Source: Clostridia bacterium (GTDB lineage: Bacteria > Bacillota > Clostridia > Oscillospirales > CAG-272). Taken from it: a stretch of 45,624 nucleotides of DNA. A program made the translations under genes and the position numbers. Numbering within the stretch: position 1 is the stretch's first letter; each line of letters opens with the position of its first letter. The stretch covers positions 1 through 45,624 of the forward strand of contig JAKSPH010000003.1 of assembly GCA_024404975.1 (NCBI GenBank). Reading direction: 5' to 3'. Under the pieces are notes generated by a model, which was not told the DNA's origin, did no database searches, and saw nothing but the letters and a program-made list of their open reading frames with translations. Shown here piece after piece: positions 81 to 45,624 of this stretch.

Positions 81-485
81 ATGAATCATTCATCTACCTA
101 TCGGAAAAGCAAAAAACACCTCTCTTTTATGAAATCCGCGCTTTCAATCATATTTGTAATCTGTTTATTAATCGGATGCTCCGCCGCACTGACATCTTGC
201 GGTTCCGACTCAGGCTCGCAATCTCAAGCCGGAATGCGAAAAGACTTTGTTGCCACAATGAACAGTTACGAAGCTTTTGTTGATGAATACGTGTCCTTTA
301 TGAAGAAATATAAAGCGAACCCCTCTGATGCGCAGATGATTTCTCAATATTCTTCGATGATGAGCCGCTACGCAGATTTTACCAACAAATTTAATGCTTG
401 GAAAAACAAGGATTTAAACTCTGCCGAACTCAATTATTATTCCCAAGTGTTAGCTAGAACCTCCAAAAAGTTAGCTTCGGTTTAA
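81..485 (+). CDS. Putative lipoprotein, DUF6591-like helical domain
   Basis: ATG at 81 after AAGGGGA; hydrophobic N-region ending LTSC (lipobox-like); C-terminal 'YEAFVDEYVSFMKKY...ELNYY' resembles DUF6591 proteins; AT-richer than neighbours. Confidence 0.65.
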   Translation: MNHSSTYRKSKKHLSFMKSALSIIFVICLLIGCSAALTSCGSDSGSQSQAGMRKDFVATMNSYEAFVDEYVSFMKKYKANPSDAQMISQYSSMMSRYADFTNKFNAWKNKDLNSAELNYYSQVLARTSKKLASV

Positions 486-551: not shown

Positions 552-561
552 CATCGGTGAA

Positions 562-933
562 TTATTTCAAATTCTCCGACAGGTAGAGATTGATGACCGC
601 TTCCACGGTTTTCGTCAGAGCGATGCGCCGTCCTTTCGGAAGGGTGCGCGTGTGGCGGTAAAGCCGAAGCAGATGCCATTCCTCCTCCGAGAGTTCGGCG
701 GCGGTCTGCGAAAGCGGCATATCGAGGATCTCGCTCACGGGCATGCGGAACACTTCCGACAGTTTCGGAAGCATTTTCATAAAGGATGCCGAGCGCCCGC
801 GCCGCCAGTTGTTGACGGTCTTGTCCGGAAGTCCGACAACGCGTTCAAACGCCGCGTCACTCTCAAATTCCGCGGCAATGAGTTCGAAAACACGTTTTCT
901 TACGGCTTCCGTCTTTTCTTTATCCACGCTCAT
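562..933 (-). CDS. XRE/Cro-C1-type HTH transcriptional regulator
   Basis: 'AAFERVVGLPDKTVNNWRRGRS...LPKLSEVFRMPVSEIL' HTH_3 pattern; 4-nt overlap with the upstream flavin reductase. Confidence 0.75.
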   Translation of the reverse strand: MSVDKEKTEAVRKRVFELIAAEFESDAAFERVVGLPDKTVNNWRRGRSASFMKMLPKLSEVFRMPVSEILDMPLSQTAAELSEEEWHLLRLYRHTRTLPKGRRIALTKTVEAVINLYLSENLK

Positions 934-20261: not shown

Positions 20262-20267
20262 AAACAG

Positions 20268-20540
20268 GTACGACGAAGAAGGGAAGGAGTAGCCCCTCCG
20301 ACACACCGAAGAGAGGAAACGGCGGTGAGAAGTTTCCGTGTGCAAAAGGCGAAGCAGTCCCTGAGTCCCGGGAGGAAAGCGCGAGCGAGTAAACCCCGGC
20401 GGATGCCTCCGTTACAGGGCGTGAGTCGGTTTTCGACTTTCCGAGGGATCTTTCGCGTGAGCGGGATCCGAACTTCGGTGGTAACACGAATTATTCGTCC
20501 GGAGCATAGCGTGTTTTTACGCTATGTTCCTTTTTTATTT
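20268..20540 (+). ncRNA. T-box riboswitch (Ala specifier)
   Basis: AGTAG, AGAGA and GGTGAGA stem-I motifs; GAA-GCA specifier (GCA = Ala, 20354..20356); T-box AACTTCGGTGGTAACACG; terminator CATAGCGT...ACGCTATG followed by a U tract; upstream of alaS. Confidence 0.9.
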
Positions 20541-43275: not shown

Positions 43276-43815
43276 TCACGGATTCTGCGGGATCTTCATG
43301 GTTTTGTCGTAGAGTTTCTTCACGCCGAACACAAAGACGAGGAGCATACCGACGACGGCACCGACACCCGCCTGCAGGATCTGATAGGGAAGTTTCACCC
43401 ACGCGTATTCGGGGGTGCTGTAAAGGAACGCTCTGCCGAGAGAGTAACCGACGACGTTGATGATCGCGCCGAGGGTAACGCCGATGCCGGAGGCAACGAC
43501 GGGATGCTTTTTCAGCACGCGGTGGGAGAGCAGAGAGATCACGACGGCTTGCACGCCGTGGGTGACGAGAGAAACGAACATAGGCGTCGGATAGAAGAAC
43601 AGATCGCCGAGGAAGGCGCCGACACCGCCGACCATGAACGCCGTTATGGGATCGAGAAGGATCGCCGCCGTGCAGATCACGATGTCGTTAAGATACAAAT
43701 GTCCGCCCGGTACGGGAATGGAAAAAATGCTGGAACTCAGCACGACGTTCATCGCCATGAGCATGGCACCGACACACATCGTGAGTATCATCTGATGCGA
43801 TTTACTTTTCATCAT
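43276..43815 (-). CDS. ECF transporter S component (probably vitamin B6/HMP type)
   Basis: 'IPVPGGHLYLND', 'GGVGAFLGDL', 'SLVTHGVQA', 'YQILQA'; about 6 TM segments; divergent from a MocR regulator. Confidence 0.85.
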   Translation of the reverse strand: MMKSKSHQMILTMCVGAMLMAMNVVLSSSIFSIPVPGGHLYLNDIVICTAAILLDPITAFMVGGVGAFLGDLFFYPTPMFVSLVTHGVQAVVISLLSHRVLKKHPVVASGIGVTLGAIINVVGYSLGRAFLYSTPEYAWVKLPYQILQAGVGAVVGMLLVFVFGVKKLYDKTMKIPQNP

Positions 43816-43854
43816 AAAAACCTCTTTACAATTGAATGATCTTATGATACAATA

Positions 43855-43882
43855 ATTCTGATCATAAGTAAATGGTCAGAAT
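43855..43882. promoter_or_regulatory. Candidate MocR/PdxR operator
   Basis: ATTCTGATCAT-AAGTAA-ATGGTCAGAAT imperfect inverted repeat (10/11) in the divergent intergenic region. Confidence 0.55.
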
Positions 43883-43914
43883 ACGTTTTTTTGATATAAC
43901 CAGAAGGGAAGAAC

Positions 43915-45009
43915 ATGAAATATCTCATCGACAGGGAAAGCACCGTCCCGATCTATCTTCAACTGTACGCGCAACTGAAAAAAGACGTTGTGGAGGGCGT
44001 TTGCCCTTACGGCGCGCGCCTGCCGTCCAAGCGCACACTCGCGGAGAAACTCGGCATTTCGGTCATCCCCGTGGAACACGCGCTGACCTTGCTCTGCGAC
44101 GAGGGGTATGCCGAAGCGCGGGAGAGAAGCGGCGTTTTCGTCATCTACCGCAGGGACGATTTCATCACACCGCCCGTTCTGACGGCTCTGCCGGAAACGG
44201 AAGCGGGATCCCCCCTCCCGCCTGCGAAAAAAGCGGTGGGTTACGTTTTCCCCCTCTCCGTGCTGACCAAGAAAATGCGGAAAGTCATGCTCGACCGCGG
44301 GGAAGCGCTCTTGATCAAATCCCCCAACCGCGGTCTTTCCGAACTGCGCACGGCGATCACCTCCTACCTGCGGCGGAGCAACGGCATTCTCGCCGATCCC
44401 TCGCAGATCGTCATCGGTTCCGGCGCGGAATATTTGTACAGTACCGTTTTGCAACTGCTCGGCAGGGGAAGGACGTTTGCGCTTGAGGATCCCTCCTACG
44501 AAAAGATCGAAAAGGTCTATGAAGCGAACGGCGTGACCGTCGAAAAACTCCCTCTCGCCGCCGACGGCATCCGTTCGGACGCACTCGCGAAGTCGGAGGC
44601 GACCGTCCTCCACGTCACGCCCTTCAACAGTTTTCCGAGCGGGGTGACGGCAAGCGCGAGCAAACGCACCGAGTACCTGTCGTGGGCGAGAACGCGGAGC
44701 GGATTCGTCATTGAGGACAACTACGACTCCGAACTGACCGTTTCGCGCAAGAACGAGGACACGCTTTTCGCCACCGACGGCGGGAAGCACGTGATCTACC
44801 TCAACACGTTCTCCAAGACCGTGGCGCCCTCCGTGCGTGTCGGTTATATGATCCTCCCGCGGAATCTCGTCGGCGAATTCGACAGAAAACTCGGTTTTTA
44901 CTCCTGCACCGTCCCCGTGTTCGAGCAGTATCTGCTCTGTGAACTGTTGGAAAGCGGAGATTTCGAACGGCACGTCAACCGTGTCCGCCGGCAGAAACGA
45001 AAGGGCTGA
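43915..45009 (+). CDS. MocR/GabR (PdxR-like) PLP-binding GntR regulator, short form
   Basis: GntR wHTH 'PIYLQLY...RLPSKRTLA..LGIS'; AAT domain 'LEDPSY', 'IEDNYDSE', 'TFSKTVAPSVRVGY'. Confidence 0.92.
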   Translation: MKYLIDRESTVPIYLQLYAQLKKDVVEGVCPYGARLPSKRTLAEKLGISVIPVEHALTLLCDEGYAEARERSGVFVIYRRDDFITPPVLTALPETEAGSPLPPAKKAVGYVFPLSVLTKKMRKVMLDRGEALLIKSPNRGLSELRTAITSYLRRSNGILADPSQIVIGSGAEYLYSTVLQLLGRGRTFALEDPSYEKIEKVYEANGVTVEKLPLAADGIRSDALAKSEATVLHVTPFNSFPSGVTASASKRTEYLSWARTRSGFVIEDNYDSELTVSRKNEDTLFATDGGKHVIYLNTFSKTVAPSVRVGYMILPRNLVGEFDRKLGFYSCTVPVFEQYLLCELLESGDFERHVNRVRRQKRKG

Positions 45010-45074
45010 ACGCGGGATGCGGGGTGTCCCCGAACCCGGCTGATTAAAGTATACTCAAAATTACAAAAACTCTA

Positions 45075-45104
45075 TTGACAAACGCTTTTCATGAATGTTA
45101 TAAT
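45075..45104 (+). promoter_or_regulatory. sigmaA promoter of the long leader region
   Basis: TTGACA-18 nt-TATAAT with extended -10 TG. Confidence 0.8.
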
Positions 45105-45137
45105 GAAGCCGACAATACAAGAAGGAGATCTACCGTC

Positions 45138-45230
45138 GTGATGAACCGTCGCTTTTACGGATATTACTACTTTATTTTCGCTTTTGAAAATAAGGTGTTT
45201 TGCGACGTCCGGAAGCATACGTTGGTTTGA
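45138..45230 (+). CDS. Micro-ORF 1, aromatic-rich leader-like peptide (M)MNRRFYGYYYFIFAFENKVFCDVRKHTLV
   Basis: AAGGAG RBS at 45122..45127; GTG 45138 or ATG 45141; TGA 45228..45230; shares a motif with micro-ORF 2. Confidence 0.7.
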   Translation: MMNRRFYGYYYFIFAFENKVFCDVRKHTLV

Positions 45231-45251
45231 CGAGTAGTTCATTCCCGATAT

Positions 45252-45288
45252 GCCGGCGGTTCGCAAGACCGCCGGCTTCTTCTTTTTT
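45252..45288 (+). terminator. Intrinsic terminator/attenuator 1
   Basis: GCCGGCGGT-TCGCAAG-ACCGCCGGC followed by TTCTTCTTTTTT, 21 nt after the micro-ORF 1 stop. Confidence 0.85.
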
Positions 45289-45329
45289 ATTCAGACACCG
45301 CATGAAAACTTTACAGACAGGACAGAACG

Positions 45330-45452
45330 ATGAACACTTTGAATCTTAATCTTTATTACAATTATTTTACTGCCTTTACCTTTGCATATCCGGGTAAAGT
45401 TTTTTGTGTTTTCCGAAAAAACGGACAAGTCGGATGCCGATACCGTCAGTGA
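45330..45452 (+). CDS. Micro-ORF 2, aromatic-rich leader-like peptide MNTLNLNLYYNYFTAFTFAYPGKVFCVFRKNGQVGCRYRQ
   Basis: AGGA RBS 7 nt upstream; shares FxFA[FY]xxKVFCxxRK with micro-ORF 1. Confidence 0.68.
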   Translation: MNTLNLNLYYNYFTAFTFAYPGKVFCVFRKNGQVGCRYRQ

Positions 45453-45467
45453 TCGGCAGAAGATACG

Positions 45468-45504
45468 AACCGCTCGGTGAACACGCCGGGCGGTTTTCTT
45501 TTTT
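45468..45504 (+). terminator. Intrinsic terminator/attenuator 2
   Basis: AACCGCTCGGTG-AACA-CGCCGGGCGGTT (two G:U pairs) followed by TTCTTTTTT, 15 nt after the micro-ORF 2 stop. Confidence 0.8.
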
Positions 45505-45570
45505 CCGCCGTATAAAATCGGGCGGAACCTGCAATGCTTACCAATATTATATTATAAAGGAGAATCCACT

Positions 45571-45624
45571 ATGAAACGCATCCCGTCCCTCATTCTCTCA
45601 GCTGCCTTGGCGGCAAGCGCGGCC
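45571..45624 (+). CDS. 5' end of an exported protein (truncated by the window edge)
   Basis: AAAGGAG RBS; MKRIPSLILSAALAASAA signal-peptide-like start. Confidence 0.65.
   Translation, partial: MKRIPSLILSAALAASAA

What the first reader, a model, noticed from the sequence alone, without database searches (positions are those of the whole stretch)
45075..45624. Tandem micro-ORF + terminator units sharing a conserved peptide motif: candidate new double leader/arrest-peptide attenuator
The ~470-nt region between a consensus promoter and the exported-protein gene at 45571 holds two consecutive units of RBS, 30-40 aa ORF and intrinsic terminator. Both peptides have a Tyr/Phe-rich stretch and align without gaps as FIFAFENKVFCDVRK / FTFAYPGKVFCVFRK (9/15 identical). 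Seven of the nine identical residues use different synonymous codons (TTC/TTT, GCT/GCA, AAG/AAA, GTG/GTT, TGC/TGT, CGG/CGA, AAG/AAA), the signature of selection on the peptide rather than a DNA repeat. Stops lie 21 and 15 nt before the terminator stems. Alternative pairings are visible: CCGGAAGCATA with TATGCCGG overlaps terminator 1, and TGCCGAT/ATCGGCA spans stop 2. This layout resembles ribosome-mediated attenuation (pheL, tnaC, speFL are established examples). Conservation of a non-aromatic KVFCxxRK motif hints at a ligand-sensing arrest peptide used twice in series for tighter control (inference). An alternative is a family of small peptides expressed in their own right. I know no described family with this motif.
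Basis: partly seen in the sequence, partly recalled or inferred. Interest (0 to 1): 0.85.

Follow-up and report, generated by a model that had tools for sequence, protein, structure and literature searches.

The report
Tandem tyrosine/phenylalanine leader-peptide attenuators
Two small tyrosine/phenylalanine-rich mini-genes, each followed by a transcription stop signal, most likely act as classical ribosome-stalling switches that turn on an amino-acid import pump when these amino acids run short, doing the job that a tRNA-sensing T-box RNA does in related bacteria.

Summary
A 12/12 consensus promoter, two micro-ORFs, two strong terminators and in-frame peptide similarity are all present.

The arrest-peptide reading is not supported. 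The cut gene at 45571 is a TrpX-like ABC substrate-binding lipoprotein. Contig C24 starts with 50 nt that are 86% identical to the window's end.

In 42 of 49 orthologous loci examined in the genus, this gene follows a T-box. The specifier is UAC (Tyr) in 14 and UUC (Phe) in 28. The closest orthologues lack a T-box. They carry a promoter, a Tyr/Phe-rich micro-ORF, a hairpin and a terminator.

The KVFC codons lie in a nucleotide block that relatives read in other frames or leave untranslated. The block is complementary to each leader's own terminator: 1 of 20,000 random assignments matches the cognate pairing.

So this is a classical trp/pheL-style attenuator sensing charged tRNA-Tyr/Phe, here duplicated in tandem. 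Unit 2 is dispensable: one strain lacks it, another has ATG>ATA, and unit 1 is invariant.

Earlier notes of this scan describe the same family in other genomes. No expression data were available.

The parts
45075..45104 (+). Sigma-70-type promoter, TTGACA-18-TATAAT with an upstream TG. It is the only + strand promoter-like site in 44900-45624.
   Evidence: 12 of 12 consensus. Homologous promoters sit at the same place in the G159, G046, G223 and G152 leaders.
45122..45128 (+). Shine-Dalgarno AAGGAGA of ORF1. The spacing is 10 nt to GTG 45138 and 13 nt to ATG 45141, which is rather long.
   Evidence: Sequence.
45141..45230 (+). Leader ORF1, MNRRFYGYYYFIFAFENKVFCDVRKHTLV. Nine of its 29 codons are Tyr or Phe.
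   Evidence: Homologous Tyr/Phe-rich leader ORFs precede the closest SBP orthologues.
45153..45185 (+). Regulatory codon run F-Y-G-Y-Y-Y-F-I-F-A-F (region 1). It forms the 5' arm of the long hairpin.
   Evidence: The hairpin 45130-45240 has z = -3.0; 4 of 500 shuffles fold as well.
45187..45221 (+). Region 2: 3' arm of the hairpin and 5' strand of the antiterminator. It contains the conserved nucleotide block that encodes KVFCDVRK.
   Evidence: Duplex with its own terminator is -25.2 kcal/mol, reached by 8 of 1000 shuffles. Cognate pairing is the best of 120 permutations and is reached by 1 of 20,000 random assignments over 11 units.
45252..45290 (+). Intrinsic terminator 1: stem 45252-45276 at -20.7 kcal/mol, then TTCTTCTTTTTT.
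45330..45452 (+). Leader ORF2, MNTLNLNLYYNYFTAFTFAYPGKVFCVFRKNGQVGCRYRQ (Tyr/Phe run at codons 9-20, 45354-45389). Its SD is only a weak AGGA at 45319-45322.
   Evidence: In run X2 the start codon reads ATA (45332 G>A); in run X3 there is 45384 G>A (Ala19Thr).
45390..45425 (+). Region 2 of unit 2, complementary to terminator 2.
   Evidence: Duplex -19.3 kcal/mol, reached by 54 of 1000 shuffles. The structure of the 5' domain is not above shuffles (z = -1.2).
45467..45506 (+). Intrinsic terminator 2: stem 45467-45496 at -22.3 kcal/mol, then a T tract.
   Evidence: In run X2 one T of the tract is missing (45499).
45280..45495 (+). The 216 nt missing from one strain: all of unit 2 from T tract 1 to T tract 2, with 9 nt that fit on either side of the joint.
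   Evidence: table 5. One contig of run X12, 322 nt long at depth about 3.
45556..45624 (+). RBS and the first 18 codons (MKRIPSLILSAALAASAA) of the regulated gene, a TrpX-like ABC substrate-binding lipoprotein cut by the contig end.
   Evidence: 43 of 50 nt are identical to the first 50 nt of contig C24 (E = 4.9e-6). C24 encodes PF04392 (E = 1.3e-54), a permease and an ATPase. The N-terminus resembles those of orthologues (MKRIVSLIL...).

Best explanation
The 466-nt leader is a classical ribosome-mediated (trpL/pheL-type) transcription attenuator, present twice in series. It controls a TrpX-like ABC importer operon (substrate-binding lipoprotein, permease, ATPase) that most likely takes up tyrosine and/or phenylalanine.

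How unit 1 would work:
- Transcription starts at the consensus promoter.
- A ribosome translates ORF1.
- When charged tRNA-Tyr and tRNA-Phe are plentiful, the ribosome runs through the F-Y-G-Y-Y-Y-F-I-F-A-F codons. Region 1 (those codons) pairs again with region 2, or the ribosome covers region 2. Terminator 1 then forms and the transcript ends.
- When charged tRNA-Tyr/Phe is scarce, the ribosome stalls on region 1. Region 2 (45187-45221, the KVFCDVRK codons) is left free to pair with the 5' arm, loop and top of the 3' arm of terminator 1. The terminator cannot form and the polymerase reads on.

Unit 2 is an old, diverged tandem copy. It repeats the test and would lower basal read-through, but it is not essential in this species.

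The KVFCxxRK similarity is mainly a by-product of a nucleotide block that has to pair with the terminator.

Shown:
- the anatomy;
- the homology of the two ORFs;
- the identity of the downstream gene family;
- Tyr or Phe T-boxes in front of orthologues;
- homologous Tyr/Phe leader ORFs in the closest orthologues;
- co-variation of region 2 with its own terminator;
- the strain variation.

Inferred:
- translation of the ORFs;
- stalling;
- read-through;
- the substrate of the transporter;
- that C24 continues the window's contig.
For: 1. Anatomy and statistics of the two ORFs.

2. Downstream gene.
- The window's last 50 nt match C24:1-50 end to end (43 of 50, E = 4.9e-6).
- C24 encodes PF04392 (E = 1.3e-54). 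Its nearest NCBIfam model is TrpX at 227.5 bits, below the cut-off of 390. A BPD_transp_2 permease and an ABC ATPase follow.

3. Regulation of orthologues.
- 55 matches outside G000 in 50 of 212 genus genomes; 49 were examined.
- A T-box lies directly upstream in 42 of those 49: 10 at Rfam's gathering score, 14 of 17 at E <= 1.6e-11, and 18 of 20 further upstream pieces.
- The specifier is UAC in 14 and UUC in 28.
- The codon register was checked on the own genome's T-boxes before the genes I read, from their first residues, as alaS, thrS, valS and ileS: GCA, ACC, GUC and AUC.

4. Leader ORFs in close relatives.
- The closest SBPs (65-70% identity) have no T-box. They carry a promoter, SD, Tyr/Phe ORF, hairpin and terminator.
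- G159: MKSTLVYADRFYFYYFTPVNSKSDL. G046: MKRRFSFAYAYFYYFYGKQ. G223: MANSVRFMGYYYFYFYFYPEKVRAICDAQNRKEDGSRFR. L165: MFYYFYFAGFSYGKHHDL. L160: MSFRFRAGRYFYYYFFPKSNGRLCCA.
- In the SBP tree, G000 groups with L165, L107 and L106 (support 94) among T-box-bearing branches.

5. RNA switch.
- The unit 1 hairpin has z = -3.0.
- Region 2 / own-terminator duplexes are -25.2, -19.3, -17.9, -17.7 and -15.8 kcal/mol, reached by 8, 54, 4, 5 and 59 of 1000 shuffles.
- Cognate pairing is the best of 120 permutations.
- With automatic definitions over 11 units, 1 of 20,000 random assignments reaches the cognate sum. For the six new loci alone, 5 of 720 do.
- By eye, compensatory change in the apical pairs printed: UUGCGA:UCGCAA in u1 against UUGUGA:UCACAA in G046.

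6. Strains. No variant lies in 45075-45290 in runs X2, X3 or X12, whereas unit 2 and the distal leader carry 45306, 45332, 45384, 45499del, 45518, 45535 and 45541.

7. Precedent. Classical attenuators exist in Firmicutes. PMC9413887: passages read, on His leader peptides predicted in the B. cereus group, Peptostreptococcaceae and Erysipelotrichales. PMC5794164: abstract and listing only, on a Leu-rich attenuator peptide in S. aureus.
Against: - No RNA or ribosome data were available.
- When the nascent RNA is cut at the 5' arm of the terminator, the antiterminator is no better than shuffles: 211 and 219 of 500 for unit 1, 85 of 500 for unit 2. In thermodynamic folds the terminator always forms. 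Support for the antiterminator therefore rests on the full-terminator duplex and its co-variation.
- In the 11-unit matrix the cognate terminator is the best partner in only 4 of 11 rows. Several leaders are close kin (L157/L172, G159/G223), so the tests overstate independence.
- SD spacing of ORF1 is long. ORF2 has only a weak SD.
- In unit 2 the strand that would sequester region 2 lies upstream of the ORF, not under the stalled ribosome, and that domain is not significantly structured (z = -1.2).
- The link between C53 and C24 rests on a 50-nt, 86% identical end overlap. C24 could be a paralogue or another strain's allele.
- G152 has a homologous leader without a Tyr/Phe ORF.
- Loci with a leader peptide are scattered on the SBP tree: 8 changes, of which 4 are forced by starred branches.
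- The excess of third-position differences between ORF1 and ORF2 leaves room for some selection on the peptide.
Confidence: 0.8

Rival explanations
1. One reading: KVFCxxRK is a ligand-sensing or sequence-specific arrest peptide. It stalls the ribosome independently of tRNA charging and thereby controls the two terminators.
For: ORF1 and ORF2 share 9 of 15 residues, 7 of them with synonymous differences. Third positions differ most (10/12/18 over 26 codons, p = 0.03). G223 keeps K-V, C-D and R-K in the same order.
Against: - The motif was not found outside this locus.
- Of the six single-unit leaders compared, G046 ends before the block and G159 and L165 end inside it in another frame. L160 reads a variant of the block (GRLCCA).
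- The same nucleotides are therefore conserved regardless of frame.
- The block co-varies with the terminator.
- Orthologous operons are controlled by Tyr or Phe T-boxes, that is by tRNA charging.
- A ribosome arrested on the motif would cover the antiterminator strand (inference).
Confidence: 0.04
2. The ORFs are incidental. The leader is controlled by an RNA-binding protein, a small ligand or a tRNA through an unrecognised structured RNA, and the Tyr/Phe richness only reflects a U/A-rich hairpin.
For: - Unit 1 is invariant at the nucleotide level among strains, more so than the neighbouring coding gene. One contig of run X2 has 6 differences in 365 nt of the regulator gene.
- G152 has the leader without the ORF.
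- In G223 the (UUUUAC)n run can also be read as a Leu run in another frame.
Against: - No Rfam family matches at E <= 10, T-box included.
- An SD plus ATG is kept in front of a Tyr/Phe-rich frame in G000, G159, G046, L165 and L160 while codons vary.
- ORF1 and ORF2 are similar only in that frame (56 against at most 29).
- The amino acids match the T-box specifiers of orthologues exactly.
Confidence: 0.08
3. Unit 1 (and perhaps unit 2) is a gene in its own right. It would be a small RNA, or a small aromatic peptide such as a type I toxin or a signal peptide, expressed from the strong promoter and ended by terminator 1. The transporter gene would then have its own promoter.
For: The promoter is consensus. 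The transcript would be about 175 nt, a long hairpin plus terminator, with start and stop codons paired to each other. Attenuator transcripts can act in trans (PMC6614838, search-listing abstract only).
Against: - No + strand promoter-like site lies between terminator 2 and the gene.
- The same element always sits directly upstream of orthologous SBP genes, in the place of a T-box.
- The hydrophobic stretch of about 11 residues is too short for a membrane helix (reasoning).
- No small-protein family matches.
Confidence: 0.05

Closest known systems
E. coli pheL-pheA and pheM-pheST leader-peptide attenuators (Rfam Phe_leader RF01859); also trpL, hisL, leuL, thrL. Names are recalled; PMC3082878 was seen as an abstract in a search listing.
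   Same: A short ORF with a run of codons for the sensed amino acid, an anti-antiterminator / antiterminator / terminator trio, and an intrinsic terminator before the first gene.
   Different: - No sequence or covariance-model match.
- Mixed Tyr + Phe codons rather than Phe alone.
- Host is a gut Clostridia MAG that otherwise uses T-boxes (9 in 69% of the genome).
- Target is an importer, not a biosynthetic or synthetase gene.
- The antiterminator strand reaches across the terminator loop.
- Two units in tandem.
T-box riboswitches (RF00230) with Tyr (UAC) or Phe (UUC) specifiers in front of the orthologous SBP operon
   Same: Same position, same regulated operon, same signal (charging of tRNA-Tyr/Phe), and the same output (anti-termination at an intrinsic terminator).
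   Different: The sensor is a translating ribosome on a micro-ORF, not direct tRNA binding. No T-box elements are present in the window's leader.
Leader-peptide attenuators predicted or shown in Firmicutes: His leaders in the B. cereus group, Peptostreptococcaceae and Erysipelotrichales (PMC9413887, passages read), and the Leu-rich attenuator peptide of S. aureus ilv (PMC5794164, abstract only)
   Same: The classical mechanism appears sporadically in Firmicutes lineages where relatives use a T-box or a repressor. The transporter family is related: hisXYZ and trpXYZ are named in PMC9413887 and in NCBIfam NF041285.
   Different: A different amino acid, a different leader sequence, and a tandem arrangement.
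Tandem cis-regulators: tandem T-boxes and riboswitches, and the two-ORF mgtCBR leader of Salmonella (recalled, no call)
   Same: Two terminator-based switches in series in front of one operon.
   Different: Here both units are homologous leader-peptide attenuators, and the second is polymorphic within the species.

Membership tests
Classical ribosome-mediated leader-peptide transcription attenuator (mechanistic class) | Short translatable ORF with an SD in the leader | tested here: met
   ORF1 has AAGGAGA plus GTG/ATG. ORF2 has a weak AGGA plus ATG. The frame is kept in G159, G046, G223, L165 and L160. Translation itself is not shown.
Classical ribosome-mediated leader-peptide transcription attenuator (mechanistic class) | Cluster of codons for the amino acid that the regulated genes deal with | tested here: met
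   8 of 12 and 7 of 12 Tyr/Phe codons, ranks 1 and 2 among 368 candidates. Orthologous operons carry T-boxes with UAC (14) or UUC (28) specifiers.
Classical ribosome-mediated leader-peptide transcription attenuator (mechanistic class) | Intrinsic terminator between the ORF and the first gene, with no internal promoter | tested here: met
Classical ribosome-mediated leader-peptide transcription attenuator (mechanistic class) | Mutually exclusive pairings 1:2, 2:3 and 3:4, with the regulatory codons in region 1 | tested here: met
   - The 1:2 hairpin has z = -3.0.
- Region 2 / own-terminator complementarity is above shuffles and specific to the cognate partner.
- A control with truncated RNA was not above chance.
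- Unit 2 fits less well.
Classical ribosome-mediated leader-peptide transcription attenuator (mechanistic class) | Read-through depends on translation and on tRNA charging | not testable with these tools
   No RNA run holds the stretch. An experiment is needed.
Rfam Phe_leader RF01859 and other curated leader families | Match to the family covariance model | tested here: not met
   cmscan of 44900-45624 at E <= 10 gave only chance-level hits dominated by the terminators, and no leader family.
T-box leader RF00230 | Stem I with specifier loop and the T-box sequence | tested here: not met
   No T-box hit in the window's leader, although the model finds 9 elsewhere in this genome and 42 before orthologues.
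Regulatory arrest peptides (TnaC, SecM, MifM, SpeFL, Erm leaders) | A peptide sequence conserved among orthologous leaders and placed so that the arrest frees the regulatory RNA | tested here: not met
   KVFCxxRK is absent from orthologous leaders. The block is read in other frames or lies after the stop. The motif was not found in any collection searched.
Regulatory arrest peptides (TnaC, SecM, MifM, SpeFL, Erm leaders) | Stalling that depends on a ligand or on the nascent chain | not testable with these tools
   Needs toeprinting or Ribo-seq.
TrpX-type ABC substrate-binding protein (PF04392 / NF041285) for the regulated gene | Pfam and NCBIfam model scores | tested here: inconclusive
   PF04392 is met (185.9 bits against a cut-off of 25.9). 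The TrpX equivalog is not met (227.5 against 390), so the protein belongs to the family but is not TrpX itself. The match is to C24, which is linked to the window only by a 50-nt, 86% identical overlap.

The most novel reading that the evidence does not exclude
The two units may not be redundant. They could form a two-step gate in which, besides Tyr/Phe codon stalling, the shared C-terminal peptide K-V-F-C-x-x-R-K is itself under selection and tunes ribosome pausing or release on the antiterminator strand. The second unit, with its Asn/Tyr/Phe/Thr-rich run, would add a second input.

The family as a whole would be an undescribed Tyr/Phe attenuator class that has repeatedly displaced T-boxes in gut Clostridia.
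Probability: 0.1. Interest if true: 0.7.

Novelty: new member of a known kind. Interest (0 to 1): 0.45.

Why it matters
It shows two different sensors of the same signal, charged tRNA-Tyr/Phe, swapped in front of one orthologous importer operon within a single genus: a T-box RNA in some species and a translated leader peptide in others.

The T-box specifiers in relatives assign both the signal of the attenuator and a likely Tyr/Phe substrate to a poorly characterised ABC importer family of gut Clostridia.

It also catches a tandem attenuator whose second copy is being lost within the species. That is a natural experiment on what a second switch in series is worth.

For annotation, it warns that conserved-looking micro-peptide motifs in leaders can be the shadow of RNA pairing constraints.

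Tried and rejected
1. Rfam at E <= 10 on the leader gave nothing meaningful.

2. DNA search of the 550 nt in 40 relatives gave only noise.

3. Motif searches:
- The KVFCxxRK pattern in 200 genus genomes gave hits at or below the control rate, none in a similar peptide.
- Longer motif patterns in genome contigs and metagenome contigs gave 0 hits.
- The two-peptide profile over 212 genus genomes gave noise; the best E of 0.003 per genome is what chance gives across 212 genomes.
- Pfam and NCBIfam on the peptides found no family.
- The ORF2 protein search, at near and longer lengths, found no candidate. This is weak evidence, since such short ORFs are rarely called.

4. Synteny through the upstream MocR-type regulator failed. 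Orthologues are at most 58% identical and their downstream genes differ.

5. Ribosome-masked thermodynamic folds always showed the terminator. A truncated-transcript antiterminator was not above shuffles. I therefore dropped that form of the argument and tested full-terminator complementarity instead.

6. Expression: no RNA holder was listed for this stretch, so nothing can be said about expression.

7. The 2722-nt contig of run X2 runs 1936 nt past the window's end, but its letters are not shown. The downstream gene had to be inferred from C24.

8. A type I toxin reading was rejected because the hydrophobic stretch is too short and the element always sits before the SBP gene.

9. A 6S or SRP-like RNA was rejected because Rfam gives no match.

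10. Literature searches listed no paper on a Tyr/Phe leader-peptide attenuator before a transporter in Firmicutes. They cover only the open library, and supplements could not be read. The supplementary tables of PMC2494555 and PMC9413887 may list such transporters.
Full report
**1. The observation**

The window is the whole of contig C53 of a 69%-complete MAG with 129 contigs and GC 0.53.

At its right end the sequence shows, in order:
- a 12/12 consensus promoter at 45075-45104 with an upstream TG;
- an AAGGAGA Shine-Dalgarno;
- ORF1 at 45141-45230 (29 aa, with an in-frame GTG at 45138);
- terminator 1, stem 45252-45276 at -20.7 kcal/mol plus a T tract;
- ORF2 at 45330-45452 (40 aa, weak AGGA);
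- terminator 2, stem 45467-45496 at -22.3 kcal/mol plus a T tract;
- a strong RBS and the ATG at 45571 of a gene with a signal-peptide-like start, cut after 18 codons.

No other + strand promoter-like site lies in 44900-45624.

The peptide similarity is real and frame-specific:
- The best ungapped score is 49, against a mean of 22 and a maximum of 46 in 3000 residue shuffles.
- The ORF/ORF frame pair scores 56, and the next best of nine frame pairs scores 29.
- Third codon positions differ most (10/12/18 over 26 codons, p = 0.03).

Among 368 genome-wide candidates of the form SD + micro-ORF + terminator, the two ORFs rank first and second in Tyr/Phe density. The only slip is 14 rather than 15 nt between stop 2 and its terminator stem.

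**2. The motif outside this locus**

KVFCxxRK, or longer forms of it, turned up nowhere else:
- In the own genome it occurs only twice.
- In 200 genomes of the genus, 26 hits compare with about 40 for the reversed control, and none lies in a similar peptide.
- It gave 0 hits in one genome each of 185,579 species and 0 in JGI metagenome contigs.
- A profile of the two peptides found only noise in all 212 other genomes of the genus.
- Pfam, NCBIfam and the protein search of 5.8 billion sequences gave nothing.
- Rfam gave no family for the leader at E <= 10.

The organism does use T-boxes: 9 were found in the 69% of the genome that is held.

**3. The regulated gene**

The window stops inside the gene. 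Among the 5'-open ORFs at the contig ends of the MAG, contig C24 begins with a cut lipoprotein signal peptide, RILSLSLSVAVAATAALSLTSCGKK.

Its first 50 nt align end to end with the last 50 nt of the window (43 of 50 identical, E = 4.9e-6). One of the seven differences, 45584 C>T, is also the allele seen in run X2.

C24 goes on with three genes:
- a PF04392 ABC substrate-binding protein (E = 1.3e-54), whose nearest NCBIfam model is the tryptophan-binding TrpX at 227.5 bits, below the cut-off of 390;
- a BPD_transp_2 permease;
- an ABC ATPase.

The window's MKRIPSLIL start also resembles the N-termini of orthologues such as MKRIVSLIL.

I read C24 as the continuation of the locus, assembled from a co-occurring strain. 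A close paralogue cannot be excluded. Either way, the gene at 45571 belongs to this SBP group.

**4. What controls the orthologues**

The SBP has 55 matches outside G000 in 50 of the 212 other genomes of the genus. I examined the upstream DNA of 49 of them.

A T-box lies directly upstream in 42:
- 10 at Rfam's gathering score;
- 14 of 17 further loci at E <= 1.6e-11;
- 18 of 20 further upstream pieces.

Reading the specifier after the S-turn GAA, as in the cmscan alignments, gives UAC (Tyr) in 14 and UUC (Phe) in 28, with no other codon.

The register was checked on this genome's own T-boxes in front of the genes I read, from their first residues, as alaS, thrS, valS and ileS. These read GCA, ACC, GUC and AUC. 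A second, more distant PF04392 paralogue on C5 follows a UGG (Trp) T-box.

In the genus, then, this operon answers to the charging of tRNA-Tyr or tRNA-Phe. Those are exactly the two amino acids that crowd ORF1 and ORF2.

**5. Homologous leaders**

The loci without a T-box include the closest relatives of the C24 protein (65-70% identity). They carry the same design as unit 1: a TTGACA-17-TATAAT/TATACT promoter, an SD, a Tyr/Phe-rich micro-ORF, a hairpin whose 5' arm is the Tyr/Phe codon run, and an intrinsic terminator.

The leader peptides are:
- G159: MKSTLVYADRFYFYYFTPVNSKSDL
- G046: MKRRFSFAYAYFYYFYGKQ
- G223: MANSVRFMGYYYFYFYFYPEKVRAICDAQNRKEDGSRFR

Among the 80 best loci from all GTDB species there are also:
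- L165: MFYYFYFAGFSYGKHHDL
- L160: MSFRFRAGRYFYYYFFPKSNGRLCCA
- more divergent ones in L193, L209, L221, L157 and L172.

Only 6 of those 80 loci have a T-box, 5 with UUC and 1 with UAC. Most of the rest show neither element.

G152 has a homologous leader without the ORF.

In a FastTree of 111 SBPs, G000 groups with L165, L107 and L106 (support 94) inside a set whose basal branches carry T-boxes. The leader-peptide label is scattered over the tree (8 changes, 4 of them forced), so several gains, losses or transfers are needed.

All these single-species leaders have one unit. The tandem form was seen only in the window.

**6. What the KVFC motif is**

The alignment of the leaders shows a conserved nucleotide block, roughly GTAAGAG.GATTTGTGATGC, right after the Tyr/Phe codons. 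It is read differently in each leader:
- In unit 1 of the window it is read K-V-F-C-D.
- In G223 it is read V-R-A-I-C-D-A.
- In G159 and L165 the stop codon lies inside it, in another frame (..D-L-stop).
- In G046 it lies after the stop.

The conservation is therefore at the RNA level.

The block and its flanks are complementary to the 5' arm, loop and top of the 3' arm of the leader's own terminator. The duplex energies are -25.2 (u1), -19.3 (u2), -17.9, -17.7 and -15.8 kcal/mol, reached by 8, 54, 4, 5 and 59 of 1000 shuffles.

The cognate assignment is the best of all 120 permutations. By eye, the apical pairs printed show compensatory change: UUGCGA:UCGCAA in u1, UUGUGA:UCACAA in G046, and a G-U variant in G159.

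I repeated the test with automatic, coordinate-based definitions over 11 units. Only 1 of 20,000 random assignments reaches the cognate sum, and for the six newly found loci alone 5 of 720 do.

Caveats:
- The cognate terminator is the best partner in only 4 of 11 rows.
- Some leaders are close kin.
- An earlier test on RNA cut at the terminator's 5' arm was not above shuffles.
- Thermodynamic folds always keep the terminator, as expected for a kinetic switch.

The unit 1 hairpin (region 1 with region 2) has z = -3.0.

**7. Mechanism**

These features are the defining trio of a classical attenuator. The regulatory codons sit in region 1. Region 2 can pair either with region 1 or with the terminator.
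- A ribosome stalled on the Tyr/Phe codons masks region 1 and frees region 2 for the antiterminator.
- A ribosome that runs on lets 1:2 re-form, or covers region 2. In G046, G159 and L165 the stop sits at the block. The terminator then forms.

An arrest at the KVFC/RK codons would instead cover the antiterminator strand.

Unit 2 fits less well. Its sequestering strand lies upstream of ORF2, its 5' domain is not significantly structured (z = -1.2), and its SD is weak.

**8. Strains**

The stretch is held by 19 runs of 6 studies of animal gut or faeces. No RNA holder was listed.

I laid contigs of four runs:
- Unit 1 with its promoter (45075-45290) has no difference in X2, X3 or X12.
- X2 carries 45306 A>T, 45332 G>A (ORF2 ATG to ATA), a 1-nt loss in T tract 2 (45499), 45518 T>A and 45584 C>T.
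- X3 carries 45384 G>A (Ala19Thr inside the shared motif), 45518 T>G, 45535 T>A and 45541 C>T.
- One X12 contig joins 45279 to 45496, skipping 216 nt, which is the whole of unit 2, with 9 nt that fit on either side of the joint.

So unit 1 is under strong constraint, and unit 2 is variable and dispensable. Because u1 and u2 are only 49-60% identical in DNA, the duplication is old and the X12 form is most simply a deletion. These contigs have depths of 3-7, so single differences may be errors.

**9. Comparison and novelty**

In mechanism this is a trpL/pheL-type attenuator. It is not a member of Rfam's Phe_leader or any other curated family.

Classical attenuators in Firmicutes have precedents:
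- His leader peptides predicted in the B. cereus group, Peptostreptococcaceae and Erysipelotrichales (PMC9413887, passages read);
- a Leu-rich attenuator peptide in S. aureus (PMC5794164, abstract in listing).

Three literature searches listed no Tyr/Phe version before a transporter. Supplements could not be read.

Earlier notes of this scan describe the same kind of Tyr/Phe leader-peptide attenuator before COG2984-type importers in other gut Clostridia and Bacilli genomes, with T-boxes in relatives. I saw them only after reaching the same reading, and they agree with it.

New in this window are the tandem duplication, its polymorphism within the species, and the demonstration that the shared peptide motif is the shadow of an RNA pairing block.

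**Verdict**

The attenuator layout is supported and the arrest-peptide idea is not. This is a new member of a known kind, of moderate interest.

Noticed in passing
window 20267-20505 (+): T-box (94 bits) with specifier GCA (Ala). It lies directly upstream of an 831-aa ORF whose N-terminus looks like alanyl-tRNA synthetase.
   Followed up: partly
window 43276-45009: Divergent pair: an ECF-transporter S component of the riboflavin type (PF07155) on the - strand, and a GntR + aminotransferase (MocR-type) regulator on the + strand. This looks like a vitamin or PLP-related transporter-regulator unit. The regulator ends 65 nt before the attenuator promoter.
   Followed up: partly
G000 contig C69:3023-3267 (L066): A T-box with a UAC (Tyr) specifier in front of a 544-aa ORF that looks like an AMP-dependent ligase. 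The organism therefore still uses a Tyr T-box elsewhere.
   Followed up: no
G000 contig C5 (L064): 325-421 (-) and 553-798 (+): A TPP riboswitch on the - strand. A UGG (Trp) T-box on the + strand precedes a second PF04392/TrpX-like SBP that is 25% identical to the C24 protein.
   Followed up: partly
L106 (G152:C6), about 285 nt upstream of the SBP gene: The promoter, SD-like stretch, 3' half of the leader and terminator are homologous to the G046 leader. No Tyr/Phe ORF and no ATG follow the SD. This is either a decayed attenuator or a different way of control.
   Followed up: partly
L170, L184, L185, L207, L211, L214-L220, L224, L225, L227, L228 (Faecalibacterium loci), about 320-340 nt upstream of the SBP gene: A conserved ORF of about 49 aa (MQAKLWQALYF.YDY...LPQLE.NL...) precedes the SBP gene. 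No T-box or leader-peptide attenuator was seen there.
   Followed up: no
L151 66-147 (+) and 188-276 (-): Two sub-threshold matches to Rfam Gut-1 RNA (36 and 47 bits, cut-off 50) next to the T-box of that locus.
   Followed up: no
G004:C50, G011:C35, G006:C17: Window 45366-45387 (22 nt, inside ORF2) gives 91% matches, in pairs about 600 nt apart, in several genomes of the genus. They may be chance hits in a conserved repeated gene. Not examined.
   Followed up: no
L161, L174, L188 (Blautia loci), about 180-245 nt upstream of the SBP gene: Conserved F-rich micro-ORFs (e.g. ..NIFQPIFFFYFLLYFLT.RR) among several T tracts. This may be a different Phe-type leader, or just T-rich DNA.
   Followed up: no
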